Source: Octopus sinensis
Taxonomy: Eukaryota
Assembly (NCBI RefSeq): GCF_006345805.1
Contig: NC_043002.1
Location: 11,036,001 to 11,100,000, forward strand
DNA length: 64,000 nucleotides
Direction: 5' to 3'
Made by a program: the position numbers and the translations under genes. Below the pieces are notes generated by a model. It was not told the origin of the DNA and did not search any database. It saw only the letters and a list, made by a program, of their open reading frames with translations. Shown piece by piece: positions 1,667-58,700 of this stretch. Each line of letters starts with the position of its first letter. The first letter of the stretch is position 1.

Positions 1667-1890
1667 GACGAAATACCTATTTCTTTACTACCTACAAGGG
1701 GCTAAACACAGAGAGGACAAACAAGGACAGACAAACAGATTAAGACGATTATATCGACCCCAGTGCGTAACTGGTACTTAATTTATCGACCCCGAAACAA
1801 TGAAAGGCAAAGTCGACCTCGCCGAAATTTGAATTCAGAACGTAAAGACGGATGAAATGTCGCTACGCATTTTGTTCGGTGTGCTAACTA
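1665..1890 (-). mobile_element. SINE family A (tail-1 unit)
   Basis: Reverse complement of the GTTCAAATTCCGCCGAGGTCGAC...CCCCTTGTGGGTAGTAAAGAAATA unit repeated throughout the window. Confidence 0.85.
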
Positions 1891-2339
1891 TTCTGTCCCT
1901 TCACCGTCTTATAGCATATCGGTTATGTCGTCATGCGACTGCATCGCATATCCTCTATTTCGACGATATTATTATCACTACGTGTGACCCTTCCAGCAAA
2001 CAAACAAACAAACAAACAAAAGAAATGAAAAGAGATCGGGTTCTGTGTTTGTGCAGCCATGTTTGGGCACCACCTTTACGGTTAGTTTAAGTCAATCATA
2101 ACAACGCCATTACTGAATGAAGACTCGTAGTTATTAATATCGATATCTATTTTATTGATTGGCTAAATATGCGTTTAGACGTAATATGTATTCTTTGGTA
2201 GACAAGTGTTGTGTCAAACACCCAACATAAACATATAGACCTAAGTACATATAGAAGCACAATACAACACATATAAGTATACATACATACGTACATACAT
2301 ACATACATACATACATACATACATACATACATAAATACA

Positions 2340-4129: not shown

Positions 4130-4366
4130 AAACAAAAATATGAGACACAGCCTAGTACATTTTTATGCTGCTGTTTGGATGGATCCATCCCATGTGGAGT
4201 ACCTCGAGACCAGTATAGAAGATTCTGTCTGTTGACCTCACCATTTACATAAAACGTAGCTTCGTCACTGAACAACAAAGTTTTTCGTAAAACTAGACAG
4301 AAGGACCGATTAAATTGCTCGTGTTCTTATTTAGTCCGGACTTCCTGATGGACAAAACCCCTGTAG
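4130..4366 (-). mobile_element. Tc1/mariner transposase relic (first catalytic Asp block) with possible TIR
   Basis: ORF 3955-4278 begins LFSDEATFYVNGEVNRQNLLYW. TACAGGGG..TGTCCA..AAGTC on the minus strand at ~4366 resembles the TIR at 880, so both relics may be one element. Confidence 0.7.
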
Positions 4367-4663
4367 GATCGAGCAGAAGTGACGAATGCATGTATAGCCC
4401 TACTGGTTCACGATAAGCTCTACAAAACGGAAGTGCTATCAGACAGACCCGTTTGTGCGATGAGCGGGGCAACGAAACCCTTCTGCTTGCACTCGTCTAG
4501 TGCCCGGCAATTGCTGCCTTGTGAAGCTTTGTCAAACAGCTTTTGACGTGCGTAGGACGGATCTATTTTATATGCGAATCTTTGTGCAGTCCTTTCTATC
4601 GCTTGTGTTGCATTGACCTCTTTTGTTTTGTGTTCGTCCCTTGTGACCTGAAATGTAAAGAGT

Positions 4664-8236: not shown

Positions 8237-8870
8237 AGGCGCGAACATGGCTGTGTCGTTAAGAATCTCATTTTACAACCGCGCGGTTTCGGGTTCAGTT
8301 TCCTGGAGTGACACTTCGGCAAGTGTCTTCGACTGTAGTCCAGTGTCGATCAATGCCTTGTGAATTAATTTGGTAGACGGAATGAGTATGGAAGCCCGTC
8401 GTATATATCTATGTGTATAAAGGCGGCGAGCTGGCAGAAACGTTAGCACGCCGGGTAAATGCGTAGCCGTATTTCGTCTGTCGTCACGTTCCGAGTTCAA
8501 ATTCCGCCGAAATCGACTTTGCCTTTCATCCTTTCGGGGTCGATAAATTAAGTACCAGTTCTGCACTGGGGTCGATGTAATCGATTTTATCCGTTTGTCT
8601 GTCCTTGTTTGTCCCCTCTATGTTTAGCCCCTTGTGGGCAGTAAAGAAATACGTATTTCGTCTGTCGTCACGTTCCGAATTCAAATTCCGCCGAGATCGA
8701 CTTTGCCTTTCATCCTTTCGGGGTCGATAAATTAAGTACCAGTTACGCACTGGGGTCGATATAATTGACTTAGTCCGTTTGTCTGTCCTTGTTTGTCCTC
8801 TCTGTGTTTAGCCCCTTGTGGGTAGTAGAGAAATATATACATTTGTGTGTATGTGTGTATGTGTGTGTGT
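8237..8870 (+). mobile_element. Degenerate SINE-B with a SINE-A dimer (8420-8835) nested in its internal microsatellite
   Basis: B head AGGCGCGAACATGGCTGTGT..GGTTCAGT. A units begin AAGGCGGCGAGCTGG at ~8420. Confidence 0.8.
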
Positions 8871-12980: not shown

Positions 12981-15223
12981 GTGTTGACGGGAAAATCCCA
13001 GGGGATAGTGACGACCGGCTCAGGATGATGTTCGTACCAGTAAGCAGGAGTGTTGATCTTTTAGTATTTACATATTTTCCAATGTAAATACTGTTCTACC
13101 CTGTTGTGGCGATTTTTGTATTTGTTTGGTGTCAGCACAGGACATCCCGAGACAAGATGATCTACTGTTTCATCAAATGAACCGCATAAATCTGCATTTA
13201 GGGTCAAAACCGTTTTGAAGAACGTTAGCCTGGCAGTTGTTTGTGAGCAAGCTTTGATCTTGCGCCGCTAATATAAAACCTTGAGTTTTTGCTTTCAGTT
13301 TTGAGCTTCTCAGCCACTGATGGGTTGTGGCTTGGTTTACATTAGCATTGTGGCTTCGAAGTATATACAGTCCATGTAGAGGTTTCTGTCTCCACCGCTC
13401 CTCAATTTGTTTCTGCCCGTTCTTTCTTGTAGTCTGTTTCGTCCATTTTGATGGCTTGGTTTTAGGTTCTTCCTCTAATTCGGGGTTAATACCGAGTTCC
13501 CTTGCGAATTTGCAAGCTTCCTTGACAATATAATGTGATCTTTTGCGGCTTCCGTATTTGCACACAAGCCGCAGCATCCAGTCCTCTGTACTATATAAAT
13601 ACTTGTTTATTGCTAACGTGGGAGACTTATAGCACAGTTCAACCGCCTTCATTCCTTTTCCCCCATTACTTCTAGGTTGATACAGGCGATCAACATCTGC
13701 TCTTGGATGGTGCATGATCTTAGTTGTGAGTAGCTTTCTTCTTCCTGTCTAGACATTAGAATTCTGTGAGATTCTAGTTAATGATGTTAAAACTGTATTG
13801 GGCAGCTGGAAGTGCCAGGGTTTTAATGGCCTCGATGCGATTTTGGGAGTTGAGTTCAGTTTTTAGTATGAGTATGTAATACTCCTTGCTTATTTTTTCC
13901 TTCATAGTAGCATGTTGTATTCCATCTCCTTCGTTTATCCCCCGGTATTTGTAATTTTCTTGTGGGTCAAGCTCTTTGATGGTTATGTCGGTATCTAATT
14001 TAATGGAAGCTACTTGTTTGAGCTTGCCTCTTACAAAAGTTCCTTTAGCACACTTATCAAAACCAAAATCCATCCAAATGTCATTGCTTAACTCTTTAAC
14101 AGTTGTTAACAGCCCTACTAGCAAACAGCTTCAGATCGTCCATATAAAACAGATGGTTTTTAACCCATACCTGGTGTTACTCAGATCTTTTGAGAGTGGG
14201 ATCAGTGCCATGCAAAAGAGTAAGGGGGGAGTTACCTTCAAAGATGCCTCGTTCGATGTTGATGTTGTTAGATTGGCTCATCTCATTATTATGCTGTAGA
14301 AGGAGACGTGTATTCCACTTGGCCATGCAACCTTGTAAGAATTTGGAGACAACACAATCAAACACTTTCCTGTCGTCTGTCCATGCCATACTCAGGTTCT
14401 TTTTCCTCCGGCAATTCTCTACAATCATTTTATTTATGAGTAATTGATCGTTGCATCCATAAGTATTCTTTTTACAACCTTTTTGAGCTTGTGGAAGGAT
14501 AGAGTTCTGTTTCAGGAAAGCGTATATTCCTTCAGTTTGAATCGAAGTGAGGATCTTGTACGTGGTGTTGAGACATGTTGTTGGTCGGTAGTTCTTTGGA
14601 TTTTTCCTGTCTTAAATTTTTGGTAGAAGGTATGTTGTTGCTTTGGTCCACCAAGCAGGTATTTGCTCTGGGTTCTAGATGACATCAGTTAAGGATGCAG
14701 CAAAATTTTGCTGTACTTCTATCAAACAATTCAACCAGAGGTTAGGGATCTGGTCCAGTCGTGGGGGTTCTCCATTTGTGACACTTTCTAAGAACACATA
14801 TTAGCTCTTCTACTCCTATTGCCTCTCATTTCTCCTCTTCAACTTCATCCAGTCTCACTTTCTCACGTTTTATCCAGTCAGCTTCAACACTATACTCTTT
14901 TTGTTGCCCCATATCTTCTTCCACAACTCTTCCATTTCCTCAGCCTTAGGTGGCTTCTTTACTTCTATCTTACTTCTGTCTTACAATTTCGCTATAACAT
15001 TTCTTTACATAAGTTTTGAATACCTTGTTTTGTCGATAAAATTTGATTCTTTTGTCGTATTTTCTGAGCCGTTGGGCTTTCACTTGTATTCGTTATTTCA
15101 CAATTTCCTTGGTTACAGGGAGGTTTATAAAATCTTTGAATTTTATATTTTTGCTTGATTTTTCTAGCTTGTTTCTTCTTAACATTTACTCCTCTACCAA
15201 GTTCATCGAGAACTGATCTATTA

Positions 15224-20500: not shown

Positions 20501-20930
20501 AGATCTTTTCGGTTTGAACGGCAGTTTTTTCTAGCGGTGTCATATGAAATTGTCACCCATAATTATGACCCTAGTATCGATCTATTGCATTTCAATCTAT
20601 TTTAGGGTTAGGGTTAGTTTGGGTTAGTTAGGGTTAGGGGTGAGGGGAAGGGTACCTTTTATCGTCACAAATGTAAATAAACCCAATCTGTTTCTTAAAC
20701 GAGGGACATATTCATACGGCACAGAATGTTGTTTACCTCAATGGACGTCAGTGATTGGTTGAAATTGCAGAAATTGAAGAAAAAAAACAACAAATATCTT
20801 ACAAACTATAGAATTTTCTCAATAAAGCCAAGAGAAAAAGATGTTTTATAAACACATTCTACCAGTATACGAAGTTTTAAATTTTTTAGTTATCTAAAAA
20901 TTATGTTAAAAACTGCCGTTCAAACCGTTC
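20501..20930 (+). mobile_element. TTAGGG-carrying MITE (right TIR damaged)
   Basis: TIR GATCTTTTCGGTTTGAACGGCAG; TSD ACCTTTTG; TTAGGG-like tract at 20602-20640. Confidence 0.9.
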
Positions 20931-22507: not shown

Positions 22508-22923
22508 GGATCTTTTCGGTTTGAACGGCAGATTTTAACATAATTTCTAAGTAACTAAAAAATTTTAAACTTCGTATACTGGTAGAATGTGTTTATAAAA
22601 CATCTTTTTCTCTTGACTTTATTGAGAAAATTCTATAGTTTCTAAGATATTTGTTGTTTTATTTCTTCAATTTCTGCAATTTCAACCAATCAGTGACATC
22701 TGTTGAGGTAAAAAGCATTCTGTGCCGTATGAATATGTCCCTCGTTTAAGAAACAGATTGGGTTTATTTACATTTGTGAAGAAAAAAGATACCCTTACCC
22801 CCACCCCTAACCCTAACCCTAAAATAGATTGAAATGCAATAGATCGATACTAGGGTCATAATTATGGGTGACAATTTCATATGACACCGCTAGAAAAGAC
22901 TGCCGTTCAAACCGAAAAGGTCC
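22508..22923 (-). mobile_element. TTAGGG-carrying MITE, intact
   Basis: GG...CC TIRs; perfect 8-bp TSD GTATTTTA (22500-22507 and 22924-22931). Confidence 0.95.
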
Positions 22924-23379
22924 GTATTTTACCTGAATGACAGTTATTATTACTAGTAAATATGTTTCTGCTACACGTATTCACTATCACCGAGCATGCT
23001 CGGTAAATGTTTCGTTAATTTCCTAGTGCTTATTCTATCTTCATTCCAATTTCAAAGTTTCCCTTCTAAAATCCCTGACATCAGCCTTGCTATGATTTGT
23101 TAAAAACAGCGTAGATTGTTGACGTCGTCTTTCAGCTTTAAACAAGTCCCAACCGAGAAGATATTCAATCAAAAGTCGTTTAACAATGACCATCTTTCCT
23201 TTTTAGTTTTAGATACAACTGCTTTATTCGATGCGAGATTACTTTATTTCAGGCCGTAACATGTTATTTGAGGAATAATTCGTTGCTTTTTTCTAGCAAA
23301 TCGCATGAAAATTTATTTGTGTTTGTATTTTCTTCAGTAAAATTTTTAATTCATTTTGTTATTTGGAAATTTATCGAAC

Positions 23380-24170
23380 AATTTTTAAACCAATCGTCGT
23401 AAAATTAACCTAATAGCTCGAGGTCCCAGATATAATTTATTAATCTGAGATTCAGCAACTTCTTAATGTAGATATAATTGAAGAATGTCAGTTTCCATGG
23501 CGAGAACAAGTGCCGGTAATAAAACAAGGAAGAACACAAGAGAATCATGATTGATTATAATCAAACAATAAAAATTTTATAATGAATTGGACGCTTATCC
23601 ATTACGAAAAATTAATGAGATGGTATTGAATATTGCTCCGAATGAAGTATAAAACACATTAGTAGCGGGTTGTGCTTATCATCAAGTAGCACTTATAGTG
23701 TCAGAATGACCTACCACTGTATTTGAAGCATATAATTCACTTTGCTGGTTTAATCATATACCATTTGGAGAAATCAGTGGAGCTGCATTCTTTGAACTTG
23801 TAATAGATGAGATTATATGAAAGAAAGATGTTAAAGGAGTTTTCACTTATCTGGGCAATATAACAATTGTTGCTGTAAGTCAATTATATTATGATAATAA
23901 GTTAAAGCAATTTCTCGAGATGGTAAAATTCTATAACGTTAACCTCAATCAAGACAAAAGTATTTTCTCAATAAAGAAATAAGCTTTATTATTTTCAGGA
24001 GTTACATTAGATCCATCAACGACAGTAAAGATACTATTGATAAATTTTATGGATAACAACCTAAAGTTAAAAACACTGACAGGCATATTTTCGCGTTGCC
24101 TTTTCGCTCACATCCAAGATTTTCCAAGAAAGATGAGATAATTGACGAAAAACAGGAAATTTGATGTGAT
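23380..24170 (+). mobile_element. Degenerate Ty3/gypsy reverse transcriptase relic
   Basis: MIDYNQTIKFYNELDAYPLRKINEM..AYHQV..TVFEA..HIPFGEISG..FTYLGNITI..NLNQDKSIFS, with stops. Confidence 0.85.
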
Positions 24171-24204
24171 AACTTGACGCAGATGTCTTTCAATATATTT
24201 TAAA

Positions 24205-24740
24205 TAAAGTCGCCGACCTGGCAGAAACGTTAGCACGCCGGGCGAAATACGTAGCCGTATTTCGTCTGCCGTTACGTTCTGAGTTCCGCCGAGGTCGACT
24301 TTGCCTTTCATCCTTTCGGGGTCGATAAATTCAGTACCAGTTACGCACTGGGGTCGATGTAATCGACTTAATCCGTTTGTCTGTCCTTGATTGTCCCCTC
24401 TGTGTTTAGCTCCTTTTGGGTAGTAAAGAAATAGGTATTTCGTCTGCCGCTACGTTCTGAGTTCAAATTCCGCCGAGGTCGACTTTGCCTTTCGTCCTTT
24501 CGGGGTCGATAAATTAAGTACCAGTTACGCACTGGGGTCGATATAATCGACTTAATCCGTTTGTCTGTCCTTGTTTGTTCTCTCTGTGTTTAGCCCCTTC
24601 TGGGTAGTAAAAAAATAGGTATTTCGTCTGTCTTTATGTTCTGAGTTCAAAATCCGCCGAGATCGACTTTGCCTTTTTATCCTTTCGGGGTCGATTAAAT
24701 AAGCACCAGTTACGCACTGGGGTCGATATAATCGACTTAA
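24205..24740 (+). mobile_element. SINE-A array (three units, last lacks tail)
   Basis: Repeated A units; the third ends at ATCGACTTA, directly before the Tx1-like element. Confidence 0.9.
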
Positions 24741-27142
24741 ATGTAAAATAAACTGTGAAATATTAAGTATGCCGACGGCAGAAAAATTTGTAGGGACGGC
24801 AAAAAAGATTAATTTTGCAGCTGCGGCTGGACTGAAAAAAAGAAAAATTATCTGTTGACAAAAATGTACTAATGCAGCACCAAACCATGTTTTCAAAGGA
24901 GGGATACGACGTAAAAGCCACCCTCCCGAGTGAAATTATAGAAGAAGCGGCAAAAAAAAAATAGCCGTATTTAAAACTCTTGTTGTAAAAGAAAATAATC
25001 TAGACAAAGCACCAAAAGAAGCTATAGAAAAATGCCTACAGCCGATCTGGCAGAACATAGAATACCTGACCAGAGGCAAATGCTTTGCCACGCTAGTAGT
25101 GTATTTCAAAAGTGAAGAGAAAGCGAAAATACATTCGGTACAACCTTTGAAAACCACGGATTTTGTATTGCTGCCAACATACTTTGGCAGGCGCACGTCA
25201 ATGATCACGGTAGAAGATATCCCGCCAGAAATGAACGTATCATGGCTATTCCCAGCCATACTAATGAGAATAATAGAAATAACGATATAAGAGACCTCAA
25301 AAATACCCCAGCAGAACTGGAAGGGGCAAGGCCTCGAGGTCATTATCCAAGCAGCGCCTCAGACCCTGAAAATGATCACAGAGAACATACACCTCGGAGA
25401 AGAAACCACCTTACGGGTAATGGTGGAGGGGAGAAGACCCCGGTGCTTCAAATGTAGAGAGAAAGGCCACATTCGGGCAAACTGTCCTACCCGTAAGGTG
25501 GAGACGGCTCAAAAAAAGAACGCAGAAGACCGACCAGTAGGCTCCCAGCAATGAAAACACTCAACTAGCTGGGAGTGAAGAAGGATGGTCTACGATAAAA
25601 AGGAAGAAATTAACCAAAAGGAAGAACCCCAATCCCATCCCTTCAACATCCAGCTCGAACAAGAAAAAAGCTCCCTCAACAGACACACACACGAAACTCA
25701 AACTACCCCAACCCACCACTATTCACCAAAAGAAACACCGATATCTCCTCCTTCCAACCCTGATAACCTCCCCTCCCCTCCCTCCCACTCAGCCCTGAAA
25801 TTTCACCCCTCCAATCCCCATCCTCCAGTCCCCGATCTCTCCCCCGTATATCCCCTCCGTCCGGCCCAGAAAAATCATCCCTCCAGTCCTGGAAAAAATA
25901 TATGGCAAAACAAGTTACTATTAGTGGCAATAAATGCCACGAACGAACAATTGACAACTAGAATTTAAAATATTCCTACAGCAGAAATCTTCAAAGGACA
26001 TTACACTAAACGGATCTTTTCGGTTTGACCGGCAGTTTTTTTTTAATAATTTCCACGTAACTAAACACTTTTAAACTTCGTATACTGGTAGAATGTGTTT
26101 ATAAAACATATTTTTCTCTTGGCTTTATTGAGAAAATTCTATAGTTTGTAAGATATTTGTTGGTTTTTTCTTCAATTTCTGCAATTTCAACCAATCAATG
26201 ACATCTATTGAGGTGAAAACATTCTGTGCCGTATGGATATGTCCCTCGTTTAAGAAACAGATTGGGCTTATTTACATTTCTGAAGAAAAAAATATACCCT
26301 TCCCCCCACCCCTAACCCTAACCCTAACTAACCCTAACTCTAACCCTAACCCTAAAACAGATTGAAATGCAATAGATCGATACTAGGGTCATAATTATGG
26401 GTGACAATTTCATATGACACCGATAGAAAAAACTGCCGTTCAAACCGAATAGATCCCGCTAAACTTCCAGAAGGAATTATGATAATACAAATAGACGACA
26501 TAAGCCTTGTAATATTAAAATCATATTTCCTCACAGACATAGGCTAGAGACACTATGGAGGGATTAGCATTAGCTAAGGACTTATGCCAAACAACTGTTG
26601 TCAAGTACAGGAAGAGTACAGCTATCGACTGAGTCAATAGTAAAAACTGACCCACCGGATTTCCTACCGAAAGAAGGTAAGAATTGCTTTCCCGTCATTG
26701 TAGCAATTGCGAAAGAGGTGATTTGGAAGACGCGAATGAAAGGGTTAATAACAGGCATTTTTATCTCTGGCCCTGGCTTGGTGAATTTCTTCACCTTCCA
26801 CCTAAGAAAGAAAATAGGGTTAGATAAAAAATGCCTGTCTGCGAAAATGTTCCAAGATCGATGGAAGAATGTCGCACGAATGTTGCGTATAGATGGAACC
26901 GAATGAATACAACGCAGGATGAACCCAAAGCATCAGTGTTGAGACGGGGTCTCGTGGTGTCCGAGCATATCCCGCCTCTCCACTCGATTCTGTATTGTTG
27001 TCTTGTATATGTTATCATTCGAACTATTCATATTTATGTAAAATTTTTAAATTCATCTTTTTGTTAACTCATACGATAAATCTGACCCCATATCAGATTG
27101 TACTGTCCTCTCTTTGTTCTCCCCTTGTGGGAAATAAAAAAT
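24741..27142 (+). mobile_element. Internally deleted L1/Tx1-like element: degenerate ORF1, ORF2 C-terminal remnant and 3' UTR
   Basis: ORF1 from ATG 24769, frameshifted: LPTYFGRR..VEDIPPE..VEGRRPRCFKCREKGHIRANC (CCHC knuckle). 26598-26906 has AKEVIWKTR..FQDRW, typical of L1/Tx1 ORF2 C-termini. No endonuclease or RT. Confidence 0.8.
26012..26456 (-). mobile_element. TTAGGG-carrying MITE nested in the Tx1-like element
   Basis: GGATC...GATCC TIRs; 8-bp TSD C(A/G)CTAAAC; (CCCTAA)n at 26311-26355. Confidence 0.95.
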
Positions 27143-27870
27143 TTGCGAAATGCTTATCGGTATTTCATCTGACTTTACGTTCTGAGTTCAAATTCCGCCG
27201 AGGTCGACTTTACTTTTCATCCTTTCGGGGTCGATTAAATATGTACCAGTTACGCACTGTGGACGATATAATCGACTTAATCCCTTTGTCTGTCCTTGTT
27301 TGTCCTCTCTGTGTTTAGCCCCTCGTGGGTAGTAAAGAAATAGGTATTTCGTTTGCCGTTACTTTGTGAGTTCAAATTCCGCCGAGGTCGACTTTGCCTT
27401 TCATCCTTTCGGGTTCGATAAATTAAGTACCAGTTACGCACTGGGGTCGATGTAATCGACTTAAAACCTGTGTCTCTCGTTAGTCCACTCTCTGTTTAGT
27501 CCCTTGTGGATAATAAAGAAATAGGTATTTCGTCTACCGTTACGTTCTGAGTTCAAATTCCGCCGAGGTCGACTTTGCCTTTCATCTTTTCGGGGTCGAT
27601 AGATTAAGTACCAGTTACACACTGGGGTCGATATAATTGACTTAATCCGTTTGTCTGTCCTTGTTAGTCCCCTCTGTGTTTAGCCCCTTGTGAGTAGTAA
27701 AGAAATAGGTATTTCGTCTGGTATTTCGTCTGCTGCTACGTTCTGAGTTCAAATTCCGCCTTTCATCTTTTCGGGGTCGATAAATTAAGTACCAGTTGCG
27801 TACTGGGATCGATATAATTGACTGGCCCCTTTCCTAAAATTTCGGGCTTTATTCCTAGAGTAGGAAATAA
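27143..27870 (+). mobile_element. SINE-A array (four units, terminal tail-2)
   Basis: Repeated A units starting at GCGAAATGCTT. Confidence 0.9.
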
Positions 27871-28119
27871 TATATTTTAAACATACGTCCAATTTACATT
27901 AGTAATTCATCACTTTTCTCAATTAATCATTGCCTTGTTATGTATTCTGTCCTCTATAAATATTTAATTGCAGTTCCTTTGAATTAATCAGAGTATCCTG
28001 ACGCATTACTTTCATAGAAGCTACCCATCAACAACAATCACAAACCATCTATTAGAAAGTTGTTGACATTTCTCTAATTCATTACTGATCAACGATATAT
28101 TTTATGTGTTTGATATTAG

Positions 28120-28790
28120 AAGGGTTCTGAGTTCAAATTCCGCCGAGGTCGACTTTGCCTTTCCCCTTTCGGGGTCGATAAATTAAGTACCACAAGAGAA
28201 CTGGGGGGTCGATGTAATCGATTCGCTTACTCCCACGAAATTGCAGGCCATGTGCCAAGATCTGAAACTGATATTAGAAGACATGTTACCACACCGGACA
28301 AAAAGCTTAATGGTATTTATTCCGTCTTAAGGCGGCGAGCTGGCAGAAATGTTAGCACGCCGGACGAATTGCTTTGTGGTATTTCGTCCGCTGCTGCGTT
28401 CTGAGTTCAAATTCCGCCGAGGTCGACTTTGCCTTTCATCCTTTCGGGGTCGATTAAATAAGTACCACTTACGCACTGGGGTCGATATGATCGACTTAAT
28501 CCGTTTGCCTGTCCTTGTTTGTCCCTTCTGTGTTTAGCCCCCTGTGGGTAGTAAAGAAATAAGCATTCTGTCTTTGCATAAGTCAGCGAGCTGGCAGAAA
28601 CGTTAACACGCTGGGTGAAATGCGTAGGTATTTATTCCGTCTTTGCATTCTGAGTTCAAATACCACCGCGGTCGACTTTGTCATCCTTTTGGGGTCGATA
28701 AAATAGGTACCAGTCAACTACTTGCGTCGATGTAATCGATTAACACTTAACCCCTAAAGTTTAGGCTTTATTACCTTTATGAGAAACGAA
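28120..28790 (+). mobile_element. Cluster of SINE-A copies
   Basis: Units at ~28120, 28329 and 28580. Confidence 0.85.
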
Positions 28791-28921
28791 ATATGAAAAT
28801 GCGAAAAGGCAGTGAATTACTAGAATGATAAGCGAGTCGGACAAAATGCATAACAGTGTTTCTTACAGCTTTATGTTCTGAGTTCAAATCCTTCGGTGGT
28901 CAACTTTGTCTTTCGTTCACT

Positions 28922-29976
28922 GGAGCTAATACAGTTTCGCACCTCTCCTTGAGAAATGCATTTTTTTGAAAAAAATGTTTCGGATTCCTACGTTTTATTA
29001 CGAATATGCAAAAAGAAAAAAAAGTTGGAACTTTTTCGAATTTTTTTCCCCTTATGTTTTAGATGGTGGAGGCACATGGTCTAGTGGCTAGAGCAGCGGA
29101 CTCGCAGTCGAGGGATCGCGGATTCGAATCTCAGACCGGGCGATGTGTGTGTTTATGAGCGAAACACCTAAGCTCCACACAGCTCTGGCAGAAGGTAATG
29201 GCGAACTTCTGCTGACTCTTTCGCCACAACTTTCTCTCACTCTTTCCTCCTGCATCTTGCAGCTCACTTGTGACTGACCGGCGTCCCATCCAGGTGGGGA
29301 ACCTATACGCCAAGGAACCGGGAAGCCCGCCCTTATGAGCCAGGCATGGCTCGAGAAGGAACAAACAATGTTTTAGATGACGGAGATTCCGAATATTCTG
29401 GAAAGCACGTTTTCAAAATTTTAAATTCAATAATCATATAGATATGTATACAAAGAGATAGATATGAATGTCTTCCTGAGGTTAAAAACAACAGTAACAA
29501 CGTCTTCTATAGGACCGCCACATTTAGTTGACAAATATATTTTATGAACAAACGAACAGGGATAAATAAATAAATGGATGAAAAAGTTCAAACTATAAAA
29601 TTGAGGTGGGGAGTGAAATTTGAGCCCCTTATTAAACTTAATAACCTTAATTATTAAACATTGTTTCTCATAAAATGACGTATATTTGATTTACATTAAA
29701 TTATTATTTACGATTATTTAAGGCAAAACACAAGTAAAACGCTAATTCTTTTCACTTTAATGTTTTTTGTCTGTATTTAATTTCGATTTGCATTTGTTCG
29801 TCAATACGCTTCGATCTCTTTAAAGTAAACAAAACCAAGAATTTTAATTGGCGGTGGTGAAATTAAATTTTTGGTTTTTTTTGCATATTCGTAATCTCCG
29901 ACATCTAAAACGTAGGAATGCGAAAAAAAATTTTAATGCATTTTTCAAAAAGAGGTGCGAAACTGCATTAGCCTCC
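28922..29976. mobile_element. Non-autonomous DNA transposon with long TIRs, superfamily unresolved
   Basis: GCTAATACAGTTTCGCACCTCT at the left, AGAGGTGCGAAACTGCATTAGC at the right, plus inverted subterminal blocks (TTACGAATATGCAAAAA / TTTTTGCATATTCGTAA). Confidence 0.8.
29065..29368 (+). mobile_element. tRNA-derived SINE, family C tail type 2
   Basis: A/B boxes TGGTCTAGTGG and GATTCGAATCT; TSD ATGTTTTAGAT; (AAAC)n tail. Confidence 0.9.
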
Positions 29977-36327: not shown

Positions 36328-36680
36328 GGATCTTTTCGCTTTGACCGGCAGATTTTTAAAATAATTCTTTGTAACTAAACACTTTTAAACTTCGTATACT
36401 GGTAGAATGTGTTTATAAAACATCATATGATACCGCAAATAATTGTTGTTGACAAAGATCTGGAGATATTGTATTCACCTCAATAGACGTCATTGATTGG
36501 TTGAAATTGCCGAAATCCAAGAAACTAAACAACAAATAGCTTACAAACTACAGAATTTTCTCAAGAAAGCCAAGAGAAAAAGATGTTTTATAAACACATT
36601 CTACCAGTATACGAAGTTTGAAAGTGTTTAGTTATAAAGAAATTACTTTTAAAAATCTGCCGGTCAAATCGAAAAGATCC
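36328..36680. mobile_element. Symmetric variant of the MITE (same arm at both ends, no TTAGGG)
   Basis: Perfect 8-bp TSD AATGTTTT (36320-36327 and 36681-36688); ~95-bp inverted arms. Confidence 0.93.
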
Positions 36681-40980: not shown

Positions 40981-40993
40981 ATATATATATATA

Positions 40994-41226
40994 TTTCTTT
41001 ACTACCCACAAGGGGCTAAACATAGAGAGGACAAACAAAGACAGACAAACGGATTAAGTCGATTACATCGACACCAGTGCGTAACTGGTACTTAATTTAT
41101 CGCCCCCGAAAGGATAAAAGGTAAAGTCGACCTCGGCGGATTATGAACTCAGAACATTAACGGCAGACGTAAATACGGCTACGCATTTCGCTCAGCGTGC
41201 TAACGTTTCTGCCAGCTCGCCGCCTC
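40994..41226 (-). mobile_element. SINE-A tail-1 monomer in (TA)n
   Basis: Complete head, core and tail-1 between TA tracts. Confidence 0.9.
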
Positions 41227-55704: not shown

Positions 55705-58700
55705 ACCTTTCACAACTCATACACACACACGCACCTACACACCCACTCGAAACCCCATCATTTGCCGATGTTCTCTTCGCCATAGACTGTGCACTGATAG
55801 AGACTGTAAATTCACCCATTTACCTGGAACAAAACGCTCTATCCCCACAAACTACAACACCACCACAACCACCAATATCTCAAACAAGGAATCCCCAAAT
55901 CTGCCGCTATTCCCAGCGAGACAGATTGTGTTTGCACAGGGATTGCCCCTTTACCCATCTCCCGGGGACTCGCCGGACATTTAAAGATAACCACTCATAT
56001 AAAAATAACCACAACCACAGTCACCTACAGTTCCCTAGACAGGAAACCACCTCTTTTTTAGCTATAATGAATCTAGCAAAAGAACTGGAAAAAAACATCT
56101 GAGCTATCACCCACCACCATCCACCACTATTACCCCACTGCACATGCCATTAAAAAGCAATCAATAAACAAACAATCACCAAAACAATTAAAAAACCATC
56201 CACTCTCGCCTCAACATTTTTGCTTAACGCCCAAGGCATCAGCCCTTCCACAATACACAAAAATGGAAGATAAGATTCCTGGAGGACTGGGTCGAGGCCC
56301 ATCCAAACCACATCCCTTTCTTCGTCCTCACTGAAACCCATCTTAGTGACCTCCACTTGGAAGCCGAGGGGAAAGTTAAAAATTTCAAAACCATTCGTGC
56401 TGATCGTGCTGGCAGAAGAAAGGGTGGGACTGCCATTTATGTCCATGATTCGTTCTCAACAGAAGCCATGAACATATTCCAATGGATACTGCGAAGCAGT
56501 CGCTGTATTCAGTCAAACCAACAACTTAACAGTAGTGGGCTCTACAGACCACCCCAAACGCCCCTACCATGCTTCAAGAATGCCTCAACAGCATAAAGTG
56601 GTTCATTCAGCAGTGTCAACCTGACAACATTTTAATGATGGGAGACTTCAACCTTCCCGGGGTTGACTGGTCTACAAACAGTCTGCCGCCAGGTTCTCTC
56701 TCTCAACCCCTGACAGAGAGGCAGTGGAATCGCTTCTTGACTTCATGGATGATTTCTTCCTGTCCCAACTGGTACTCGAACCAACGAGATGTCACAAAAA
56801 CGTCTTAGACTTAATTTTCAGCAATCACACTGATACTATCCACAATATTACAGTGGAGAAAACCCTACTCTCCGACTATGACATGGTTCTCTGTGATCTG
56901 AGATTTCACTGGCCAAAATGCAAAACAAATGTCATCCCTCCTGTTCATCCATTTGACACCATGGATTTCCACAATGCAAACTGGGAAGCGATCAATAATG
57001 ATCTTGCACAAGTCGATTGGTCCTTCACGCACACTACACACCACTAACATCAAAAAGTCCTGGCAGTCACTTGTAGACACCATCACGAACATATGTGCAA
57101 GACACACCCCATTAAGATCTGCAAACAAATCTAAGTGTCGAATCCCTAAAAATAGAAAATCTCTCATAAGAAAATTAAAAGAATTAACAAAAAGATCAAC
57201 ATGCTGAAATACTGTCAACAGCAACACACCAACCTGACTGCCATTTCGTCGCTAGAGATTAAAAAACATAAACTCCAAAACAACATGATGTCTAACATCA
57301 ATAGTCAGCGAAGAGCTGAAGAGGCCTGGGCCATTGAGAAGATCAAACTCAATCCCAAAGTGTTCTTTTCATTTGCAAAAAAACACAGAGTCACTGGTTC
57401 TACTGTTGGCCCTCTGATTGATGAAAATGGTACTCTTCAAGACAATGGGAGAGATATGCCAAAACCATGGGAGAGATATTGCAGAAACAATATTGCTCTG
57501 TTTTCAGCAGTCCTGATATGACTGATCTGGGCTGTATCAGTGATGTTACTCCCCAATACACTTTATAGGACATAACATTTGGCGCTCCTGATGTCTTAGC
57601 AGCAATAAAGGAAATGAAGCATAATTCAGCAGTAGGTCCCGATAGGTTCCCTGCTTGTGTCTTGAAGATGTGTCAAAACCAACTTGCACCCCTCTAGCCA
57701 ATCTGTGGCGGAACTCACTGGATGCTGGATATATACCAGAAGACCTTCTATCCCAGTCTGTCGTCCCAGTTTTCAAAAAAGGAAACAAATCGCTTGCCGT
57801 GAATTACCGTCCAATCTCACTCACCTCTCATATCATCAAGGTATTGAGAGGGTGCTGAGATCGCGTATGACTCACTTCCTTGAGAGTCATAATATGCTGA
57901 ACCCCAACCAGCATGGATTCCGTAATGGGAGAGATTGCCTGACGCAGCTACTGCATCATTTTGATGACATTTTGAGAGCCTTGGGAGAAGGTTCCAACAC
58001 TGATGTCATCTACCTTGATTTCAGCAAGGCCTTTGACAGGGTTGATCATAAGATCCTTCTGAGAAAGCTGTCCAATATTGGTGTCACTGGAAAGCTGCTG
58101 CAGTGGATCAAGTGCTTCCTGTCTAACAGAACCCAACATGTTGTAGTCGAAGGAGTCAAATCCAGCCCAGCCAAAGTCAGCAGTGGTGTCCCACAAGGCA
58201 CTGTGTTGGGCCACTTCTCTTCATCATCTACATAAATGATATTACTGACACCATCAAACACAGTAACATCAGAACCTTCGCTGATGATTCCAAGCTCCAG
58301 AAGGTCATCAATGGCGTGGATGACCGAATAAACCTTCAGTCAGACCTACTGGCTGTTGTCCAATGGGCGGAAAAGAATAACATGTTGCTAAATGAAGACA
58401 AATTCGAACTGATCCACTTTGGAAGGGAGGACGCTCTGAAACTCCCATACTCTCTTCCTTCTGGAGAAATTCTCATGGCATCCAACAACATCAGAGACTT
58501 GGGAGTAACAGTGGACAACAACATAAGCTGGGCTACACATATAAGCAGCAAAGTTGATATGGCCCGCAGAATGTGTTCCTGGATTCCCAGAACCTTCCAG
58601 TCGAGAGATTCCCACGCTATTATCCTTCTCTTCTCCACTTTTGCCCGACCCCGCCTTGAATACTGCTGTCCACTGTGGTCTCCCTACACAAAACAAAATA

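What the first reader, a model, noticed from the sequence alone, without database searches (positions are those of the whole stretch)
24618..27200. Tx1-like element shares its 3' tail with SINE-A and takes the tail's place inside a SINE-A array
Seen: the element ends TGTCCTCTCTTTGTTCTCCCCTTGTGGGAAATAAAAAAT (27104-27142). SINE-A tail-1 ends TGTCCTCTCTGTGTTTAGCCCCTTGTGGGTAGTAAAGAAAT. The element begins right after ATCGACTTA, where tail-1 normally starts, and is followed by another SINE-A unit entered inside its head. Established: many SINEs share 3' tails with their partner LINE. Inference: this is the lineage that mobilises SINE-A tail-1. Either the LINE carries a SINE-derived 5' end and SINE-A/tail-1 is its internal-deletion derivative, or it targets SINE-A.
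Basis: partly seen in the sequence, partly recalled or inferred. Interest (0 to 1): 0.72.

Follow-up and report, generated by a model that had tools for sequence, protein, structure and literature searches.

The report
Octopus SINE that targets itself
A broken Tx1-like retrotransposon shares its 3' hairpin tail with an abundant short repeat (SINE) and sits inside that SINE's own head, which likely means this retrotransposon lineage inserts both itself and the SINE into existing copies of the SINE and so builds tandem arrays, probably in an octopus.

Summary
The element (24741-27142) is a dead Tx1-like LINE: ORF1 with a zinc knuckle, a MITE inside it, and about 3 kb of ORF2 missing. Its last 39 nt match SINE-A tail-1 (0 of 2000 shuffles reach the score), including a 4-bp hairpin with two compensated pairs. 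Of 22 tail-1 ends in the window, 16 join SINE-A at head position 48; the same junction shows in hundreds of contigs in four runs. One array shows a 14-bp target duplication there. Tail-2 diagnostic bases rule out a long duplication for tail-1 units. The LINE joins at position 34, not 48; one 88%-identical paralogue joins in the same register. Best reading (0.55): a Tx1-like lineage nicks the SINE head, and a sister family mobilises tail-1 SINEs into their own family's head. Tail-1 is not a simple deletion product of this LINE. The SINE head/core before ORF1 may have come with the LINE's RNA or be a ~135-bp duplication; no genome was held, so this stays open. Closest precedent: crocodilian Tx1-Mar/SINEU, whose target is a DNA transposon and not the SINE itself.

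The parts
24209..24433 (+). SINE-A unit with whole head and tail-1 (first unit of the array)
24434..24617 (+). SINE-A unit q48-q231 with tail-1
24618..24740 (+). SINE-A head/core q48-q169 without tail, directly before the LINE (LINE 5' end or long target duplication; unresolved)
24741..24768 (+). 28-nt unique leader before the likely ORF1 ATG (24769)
   Evidence: sequence; frames
24769..26547 (+). Broken ORF1 (frameshifts, stops, MITE inside) with a CCHC zinc knuckle near 25441-25488; likely stop 26545-26547
   Evidence: Pfam zf-CCHC E 1.1e-4, above cut-off; frames
26011..26458 (.). MITE-like insertion with terminal inverted repeats and a 5-bp duplication CTAAA; absent from other LINE copies
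   Evidence: joint 26007->26461 skipping 453 nt in 3 of 4 runs
26555..26581 (+). Candidate ORF2 start remnant and internal-deletion breakpoint (about 3 kb of ORF2 missing)
   Evidence: contigs of longer relatives begin to align at 26582; the start codon itself is inference
26582..26906 (+). C-terminal ~108 aa of a Tx1-like ORF2
   Evidence: 111 phmmer hits; 47% identical to the end of an EN+RT+zinc-finger protein
26907..27142 (+). 3' UTR; 27104-27142 shared with SINE-A tail-1; hairpin 27120-27132 with loop CTTGT
27145..27342 (+). SINE-A q34-q231 (target entered inside its head) with tail-1
   Evidence: paralogue in the same register, table 8 record 16
27343..27707 (+). Two SINE-A units q48-q231 with tail-1 (the first an older tail variant)
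27708..27719 (+). 12-nt duplication of q48-q59
27720..27870 (+). Terminal SINE-A unit of the tail-2 subfamily (likely the original resident; end approximate)

Best explanation
This is a dead, internally deleted copy of a Tx1-like LINE joined to position 34 of a SINE-A head, from a lineage whose endonuclease likely nicks SINE-A heads and whose reverse transcriptase likely recognises the shared 3' hairpin, so that tail-1 SINEs would be copied into position 47/48 of existing SINE-A copies and build 184-bp arrays. Shown: the anatomy, the shared tail and hairpin, the fixed junctions, short target duplications, and that array units are mostly not copies of their neighbours. Inferred: (1) bottom-strand nick at q47/48 for tail-1 SINEs and about q33/34 for this LINE, second nick 12-16 nt downstream. 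(2) The new cDNA usually pairs with the homologous overhang, giving seamless units that start at q48; when it does not, a short duplication is left. (3) The direct partner of tail-1 is a sister family of this element. (4) The SINE head/core in front of ORF1 arrived with the LINE's RNA, as a SINE-derived 5' end or read-through from its target. Step 4 is the weakest, about even odds.
For: Tail match beyond chance. Hairpin: 96.6% of 88 cells paired, 2 of 4 pairs changed on both sides (one of them LINE versus SINE), 4 of 500 shuffles as high. Junctions: 16 of 22 tail-1 ends join q48 (13 directly, 2 after a 6-nt tail repeat, 1 after a 12-nt duplication), 2 join q15, 2 lie in (TA)n, 2 other. A tail-1 end is the loose-end consensus before q48 in 747, 951, 472 and 493 contigs of four runs from four organism labels. 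Array K (55104-54710, minus strand): an old resident is split by a young, nearly full-length tail-1 SINE with a 14-nt duplication that carries the resident's base and not the insert's. Three tail-2 diagnostic bases (4/4, 4/4, 3/4 terminal units) are in 0 of 4 upstream neighbours; tail-1 units share no more derived bases within arrays than between (0.76 vs 0.74, p 0.47). One paralogous contig (224 nt, 27 differences, no gap) runs from the LINE UTR 33 nt into the SINE side in the same register (record 16), while a contig of this copy's ORF1 is identical in three runs. A full ORF2 relative has endonuclease, RT and zinc finger and scores 340 bits to Xenopus Tx1 ORF2 against 175 to human L1. Many Tx1 families are target-specific (PMC4494074).
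Against: LINE and tail-1 junctions differ by 14 nt. Only one paralogue bridges the 3' junction. Of the three listed pieces that reach the tail, one ends 19 nt past it with 16 gap letters, and one leaves the alignment at 27134 with 38 unaligned letters (32 of 267,543 pieces shown). A distant relative that reads through the tail (P0029, 38% identical) shows no SINE-A peptide after it (160 of 500 shuffles as high), and a second Tx1-like remnant at 4297-4660 is not followed by SINE-A. 2 of 22 tail-1 ends lie in (TA)n, so targeting is not strict. In arrays B, D and G the first unit has C at q48 while the next unit does not, which simple resident-splitting does not predict. Arrays B, C and G show signs of local duplication. 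No listed contig resolves the 5' junction in another copy. The loose-end consensus is mixed (agreement 0.50-0.59), so those counts overstate tail-1 junctions, and they cannot tell independent insertions from inherited multimers.
Confidence: 0.55

Rival explanations
1. Ordinary SINE-LINE partnership without real targeting: the LINE landed in a SINE because SINEs are abundant, and the arrays come from a multimeric master copy plus DNA-level duplication.
For: Tandem SINE arrays with a whole first head and truncated later heads are known in a bivalve and were put down to unequal recombination (PMC11481361 passages). Arrays B, C and G share local variants. A distant LINE relative and the second remnant are not followed by SINE-A.
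Against: 14-nt duplication with the resident's base in array K and a 12-nt duplication at 27708. Terminal units belong to different subfamilies. No overall excess of shared variants within arrays. A paralogue has the same q34 register.
Confidence: 0.2
2. The LINE targets SINE-A but has no SINE 5' end: it makes an unusually long (~135 bp) target duplication of q34-q169, later trimmed to q48 by tail-1 insertions upstream.
For: The two units flanking the LINE are the only 2 of 31 carrying all three of their shared variant bases (single frequencies 8, 7 and 10 of 31; post hoc). A rotifer R9 paper title reports an exceptionally long duplication (reference list of PMC2861651; the 126-bp figure is recalled).
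Against: The flanking units differ at 10% of sites. Tail-1 insertions leave 12-16 nt duplications, and a long one is excluded for them. A shared subfamily or age explains the three bases as well.
Confidence: 0.13
3. One reading: SINE-A with tail-1 is an internal-deletion derivative of this SINE-headed LINE.
For: The LINE body starts exactly at the core/tail boundary. Bipartite LINE derivatives fused to SINE heads are known (PMC5786205 passages).
Against: The first ~23 nt of tail-1 match no part of this element. Stem pair and junction differ. The core carries other tails. A deletion from a sister family is not excluded.
Confidence: 0.08
4. Chance similarity or assembly artefact.
For: The shared stretch is short and T/C-rich. 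No listed contig of this very copy bridges either junction.
Against: Shuffle and background tests. The tail reads LVGNK in two independent LINE relatives. A 243-nt piece is identical in three runs and a paralogue bridges the 3' junction.
Confidence: 0.04

Closest known systems
Tx1-Mar LINEs and SINEU of crocodilians (Kojima 2015, PMC4494074; parts 1-4 of 5 read)
   Same: Tx1 LINE and SINE share a target; tandem SINE insertions sandwich a ~16-bp duplication; some Tx1-Mar families carry the same small-RNA head as the SINE; transcription from the target is proposed.
   Different: The target there is a Mariner DNA transposon, heads are U1/U2, and no LINE sharing the SINE 3' end was found. Here the target is the SINE's own head and the 3' tail is shared.
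Target-specific Tx1 families: Tx1 (Xenopus), Keno, Kibi, Koshi (as listed in PMC4494074)
   Same: Endonuclease-RT ORF2, zinc-knuckle ORF1, insertion into a multicopy repeat.
   Different: Listed targets are DNA transposons, snRNA genes, microsatellites, satellites, 5S rRNA and LTR elements; a SINE is not among those I read.
Bipartite, ORF1-retaining non-autonomous LINEs such as HAL1 (PMC5786205 passage)
   Same: ORF1 kept, ORF2 almost wholly deleted, 3' tail kept.
   Different: Not shown that this deletion is shared by several copies; it may be private.
Tandem SINE arrays in the bivalve Scapharca and SINE-derived satellites of squamates (PMC11481361, PMC10702118; passages)
   Same: First unit with whole head, later units cut at a fixed head position.
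   Different: Explained there by unequal recombination. Here units are mostly not copies of neighbours and short duplications mark the junction.
Octopus tRNA-CORE SINEs (OR2; named in PMC4758252 and PMC8967140 passages)
   Same: Abundant octopus SINE with head, conserved body and exchangeable tails.
   Different: That SINE-A is OR1/OR2 is a recalled resemblance; no reference sequence could be compared.

Membership tests
Tx1 clade of non-LTR retrotransposons | ORF2 with apurinic-type endonuclease and RT | tested here: inconclusive
   Deleted in this copy; present in relative P0116, 47% identical over the last 108 aa
Tx1 clade of non-LTR retrotransposons | ORF1 with CCHC zinc knuckle | tested here: met
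   Pfam zf-CCHC 22.5 bits, cut-off 20.8
Tx1 clade of non-LTR retrotransposons | RT phylogeny groups with Tx1 apart from L1 | tested here: inconclusive
   Relative scores 340 bits to Tx1 vs 175 to human L1. The quick tree of 53 rows puts it with Argonauta sequences (support 100) but has no L1 outgroup and an open base.
Tx1 clade of non-LTR retrotransposons | Sequence-specific insertion into a multicopy repeat | tested here: inconclusive
   This copy plus one paralogue at q34; other listed pieces unclear
Stringent SINE-LINE partner pair | Shared 3' terminal sequence | tested here: met
   39 nt, score 44, 0 of 2000 shuffles
Stringent SINE-LINE partner pair | Conserved stem-loop with compensatory changes | tested here: met
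   only 4 pairs and 2 compensated cells, so modest
Stringent SINE-LINE partner pair | Mobilisation in trans by the LINE protein | not testable with these tools
   needs a retrotransposition assay
CORE-SINE (OR1/OR2) | tRNA-derived head with A and B boxes | tested here: inconclusive
   ARAGORN found 0 genes; Rfam gave no tRNA hit in 24000-29000; box-like motifs seen by eye against a recalled consensus
CORE-SINE (OR1/OR2) | CORE domain similarity | not testable with these tools
   no Repbase, Dfam or SINEBase sequence on hand
HAL1-like bipartite non-autonomous LINE | Same internal deletion in several copies | tested here: inconclusive
   no listed contig or joint settles the 26581/26582 breakpoint
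TRIM (Helenus/Cassandra-like) | TG..CA terminal repeats with primer site and polypurine tract | tested here: not met
   units start at GG/CG/TG and end at the core/tail boundary without such termini (by eye)

The most novel reading that the evidence does not exclude
A closed self-targeting loop. A Tx1-like LINE lineage in octopods uses an abundant SINE's head both as its insertion target and as its own 5' end and promoter, and mobilises a SINE subfamily that inserts into its own family. A large share of octopus SINE DNA would then have grown as arrays by repeated targeted insertion, and 'SINE head + core + whole LINE' would be the missing intermediate of SINE tail swapping.
Probability: 0.3. 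Interest if true: 0.72.

Novelty: new variant of a known kind. Interest (0 to 1): 0.5.

Why it matters
SINEs make up 11.6% of the Octopus vulgaris genome, with 80 L1-Tx1 families annotated (PMC13282606, passages and supplement rows). A SINE steered into its own head has a self-renewing safe target and grows in arrays by insertion, not only by recombination. That would change how repeat counts, ages and array origins are read in cephalopods. It would add a SINE as target class for Tx1 endonucleases, with two neighbouring cut sites (q34, q48) as a natural test of how specificity shifts. If the LINE really starts with the SINE head and core, it shows how CORE-type SINEs pick up new LINE tails. 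The parts all have precedents, so this is a new arrangement and not a new kind of element.

Tried and rejected
No whole genome is held, so copies could not be collected. SINE pattern scans found 0 matches in viral, metagenome and prokaryote contigs, and the search for related loci with P0116 found no locus. Word-index protein searches with ORF1 and with the ORF2 end gave 0 hits among 33 and 73 candidates; the exhaustive search then gave 111. Atlas search with ORF1: best score 0.89, uninformative. Single-sequence AlphaFold of the 118-aa ORF1 piece: pLDDT 36.6, no fold search done. No RNA holder listed, which says nothing on expression. Six look-ups of earlier findings returned nothing. Long-duplication model for tail-1 units: rejected by tail-2 diagnostic bases. 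Local duplication as the general source of arrays: not supported; the all-31-copy test (0.64 vs 1.03, p 0.98) is biased by old single copies, so I repeated it on 22 tail-1-bearing units. The first pair count was one column out of register and is superseded. The tail of the second Tx1-like remnant matches tail-1 only weakly (184 of 1000 shuffles; 13 of 1000 for one variant picked after the fact), so it is not used as support. The careful tree did not finish. Summed contig depths were not used as copy numbers.

Full report
Setting. The window is animal DNA, rich in microsatellites and SINEs. The closest named relatives of the element's protein are from the octopod Argonauta hians, so an octopus source is my inference; no tool named it. 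No whole genome is held. Positions 'q' refer to the SINE-A copy at 28331-28561: head and core q1 to about q169, tail-1 to q231.

Anatomy. The unique part runs from 24741 to 27142. A likely ORF1 starts at ATG 24769, 28 nt after the SINE core, and is broken by frameshifts and stops. It holds a CCHC zinc knuckle and ends at about 26547. A 448-bp MITE-like element with a 5-bp duplication sits in it at 26011-26458; contigs in 3 of 4 runs skip it. After about 35 nt comes the C-terminal ~108 aa of ORF2, with 111 hits in an exhaustive search. One hit's cluster holds a 1111-aa protein with endonuclease, RT and zinc finger, 47% identical over this stretch, so about 3 kb is missing here. Contigs of longer relatives begin to align at 26582 with 100-477 unaligned letters upstream. 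That relative scores 340 bits to Xenopus Tx1 ORF2 and 175 to human L1. The quick tree groups it with Argonauta sequences but has no L1 outgroup. So the element is Tx1-like; formal clade membership is not proven. It belongs to a family: contigs with another letter number 6-13 per run at an ORF1 site (25093) and 40-71 at an ORF2 site (26647), and the ORF1 stop at 25288 is absent from most other copies.

The shared tail is real. The last 39 nt score 44 against the majority of 17 tail-1 copies. No shuffle of 2000 reaches this, the best of 491 background windows is 33, and five tail-2/tail-3 copies score 12-17. The shared part holds a 4-bp stem around the loop CTTGT: 96.6% of 88 cells pair, and two pairs change on both sides, one in the LINE and one in an older tail-1 variant (4 of 500 shuffles; a small helix, so modest evidence). 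Two independent LINE relatives read LVGNK at their ends, the LINE form of the tail (2 of 125 proteins). Stem-loops of this kind are typical of stringent SINE-LINE pairs (PMC3747384 passage). The first ~23 nt of tail-1 match nothing in the element, which speaks against tail-1 being a one-step deletion product of it.

Tail-1 SINEs join the SINE head at a fixed place. Of 22 tail-1 ends in the window, 16 are followed by q48, 2 by q15, 2 by (TA)n and 2 by something else. In four runs from four organism labels, the loose-end consensus before q48 is a tail-1 end in 747, 951, 472 and 493 contigs (agreement 0.50-0.59, so these are upper figures). Three observations point to insertion and not copying. 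First, in array K an old resident is split by a young, nearly full-length tail-1 SINE with a 14-nt duplication of q48-q61 that carries the resident's base; 27708-27719 is a bare 12-nt duplication of the same site, and 28331-28561 is a less clean third case. Second, three bases diagnostic of tail-2 terminal units appear in 0 of 4 upstream neighbours, which excludes a 120-bp duplication for tail-1 units. Third, among 22 tail-1-bearing units, derived bases are shared equally within and between arrays (0.76 in 17 pairs, 0.74 in 214, p 0.47). Against this: arrays B, C and G do share local variants, first units in B, D and G differ from the next unit at q48, and two tail-1 ends lie in (TA)n, one with a 13-bp duplication. 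Both insertion and some later duplication probably act.

The LINE's own junctions. Its 3' end joins q34, 14 nt upstream of the tail-1 site. One contig in run X2 covers 26952-27175 with 27 differences and no gap, 33 nt past the junction (record 16). A contig of this copy's ORF1 is identical in X1, X2 and X6, so record 16 is a paralogue in the same register. Two other listed pieces reach the tail: one ends 19 nt past it with 16 gap letters, one leaves at 27134 with 38 unknown letters. Only 32 of 267,543 pieces were shown. A distant relative (P0029) has no SINE peptide after its tail, and a second remnant at 4297-4660 is not followed by SINE-A, so the wider group does not all target SINE-A. At the 5' end the LINE starts exactly at the core/tail boundary with no trace of a short q34-q46 duplication. 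Either the SINE head/core came in with the RNA, or the duplication is ~135 bp, or 62 nt of target were lost to that exact point. The two flanking units are the only 2 of 31 with all three of their shared variants but differ at 10% of sites, which keeps the long-duplication reading alive. No listed row settles it.

Mechanism, committed. Shown: anatomy, tail, hairpin, fixed junctions, short duplications. Inferred from target-primed reverse transcription (established knowledge): a Tx1-type endonuclease nicks the SINE head; the RT binds the hairpin; cDNA that is homologous to the target pairs with the overhang and yields seamless 184-bp units; repeated rounds add units on the 5' side. In this array the two 5' units are indeed closest to the majority sequence (1.7% and 2.7% against 4.2-8.4%). 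The direct partner of tail-1 is likely a sister family that cuts at q47/48. Confidence 0.55 for the whole, about even odds for a SINE-derived LINE 5' end.

Comparison with what is known. Crocodilian Tx1-Mar and SINEU share a target, make tandem insertions with ~16-bp duplications, and some Tx1-Mar families share the SINE's head, but the target is a Mariner element and no shared tail was found (PMC4494074, parts 1-4 of 5 read). Tandem SINEs in bivalves and squamates were put down to recombination (PMC11481361, PMC10702118; passages). Cephalopod repeat surveys list L1-Tx1 and tRNA-CORE SINEs, and the passages I saw do not link them (PMC13282606 passages and supplement search; PMC8967140 and PMC4758252 passages). 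Nine literature searches showed no paper on a Tx1 element that targets its own partner SINE. The library lacks most subscription papers, including Ohshima and Okada 1994 and the R9 paper (titles seen only in reference lists), Repbase and Dfam could not be searched, and supplements of the other papers were not read. An entry noting this target may exist there.

Verdict. Observation confirmed with one correction (q34 against q48). Interpretation partly supported. New variant of a known kind; interest 0.5, up to 0.72 if the self-targeting loop with a SINE-headed LINE holds genome-wide.

Noticed in passing
window 4297-4660 (+): Second, more decayed Tx1-like ORF2 remnant with an internal deletion; it ends in a weakly similar tail (same loop) and is not followed by SINE-A.
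   Followed up: partly
window 26011-26458, 22508-22925, 20502-20927, 36328-36680: High-copy MITE-like family, about 420-450 bp, with terminal inverted repeats, an apparent 5-bp target duplication and an internal (CCCTAA)n telomere-like run.
   Followed up: partly
window 40992-41224 (-) and 8422-8835 (+): Tail-1 SINEs lying in (TA)n runs, one with a clean 13-bp duplication, the other in the TA-rich part of what looks like a second SINE-like family: a possible second target.
   Followed up: partly
window 7973/7974 (+) and 47197/47196 (-): A third junction class: tail-1 variants joined to head position 15, both in front of tail-2 units; perhaps another sister endonuclease.
   Followed up: no
window 8125, 27824, 30683, 47044 (tail-2); 9984, 35204 (tail-3): SINE-A carries at least two other tails, starting at the same core boundary; their partner LINEs are unknown.
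   Followed up: no
window 14084-14779 (-) and 57694-58211 (+): Two other decayed reverse transcriptase fragments, only distantly related to the Tx1-like protein.
   Followed up: no
window 23480-24160 (+): Decayed coding-like stretch just upstream of the array that looks by eye like a retroelement RT/pol remnant; not tested.
   Followed up: no
window 1678-1910 (-): SINE-A unit with an old-type 5' part and a young-type 3' part, followed by only 17 nt of q48-q64 and then unrelated DNA; may be 3' read-through carried along.
   Followed up: no
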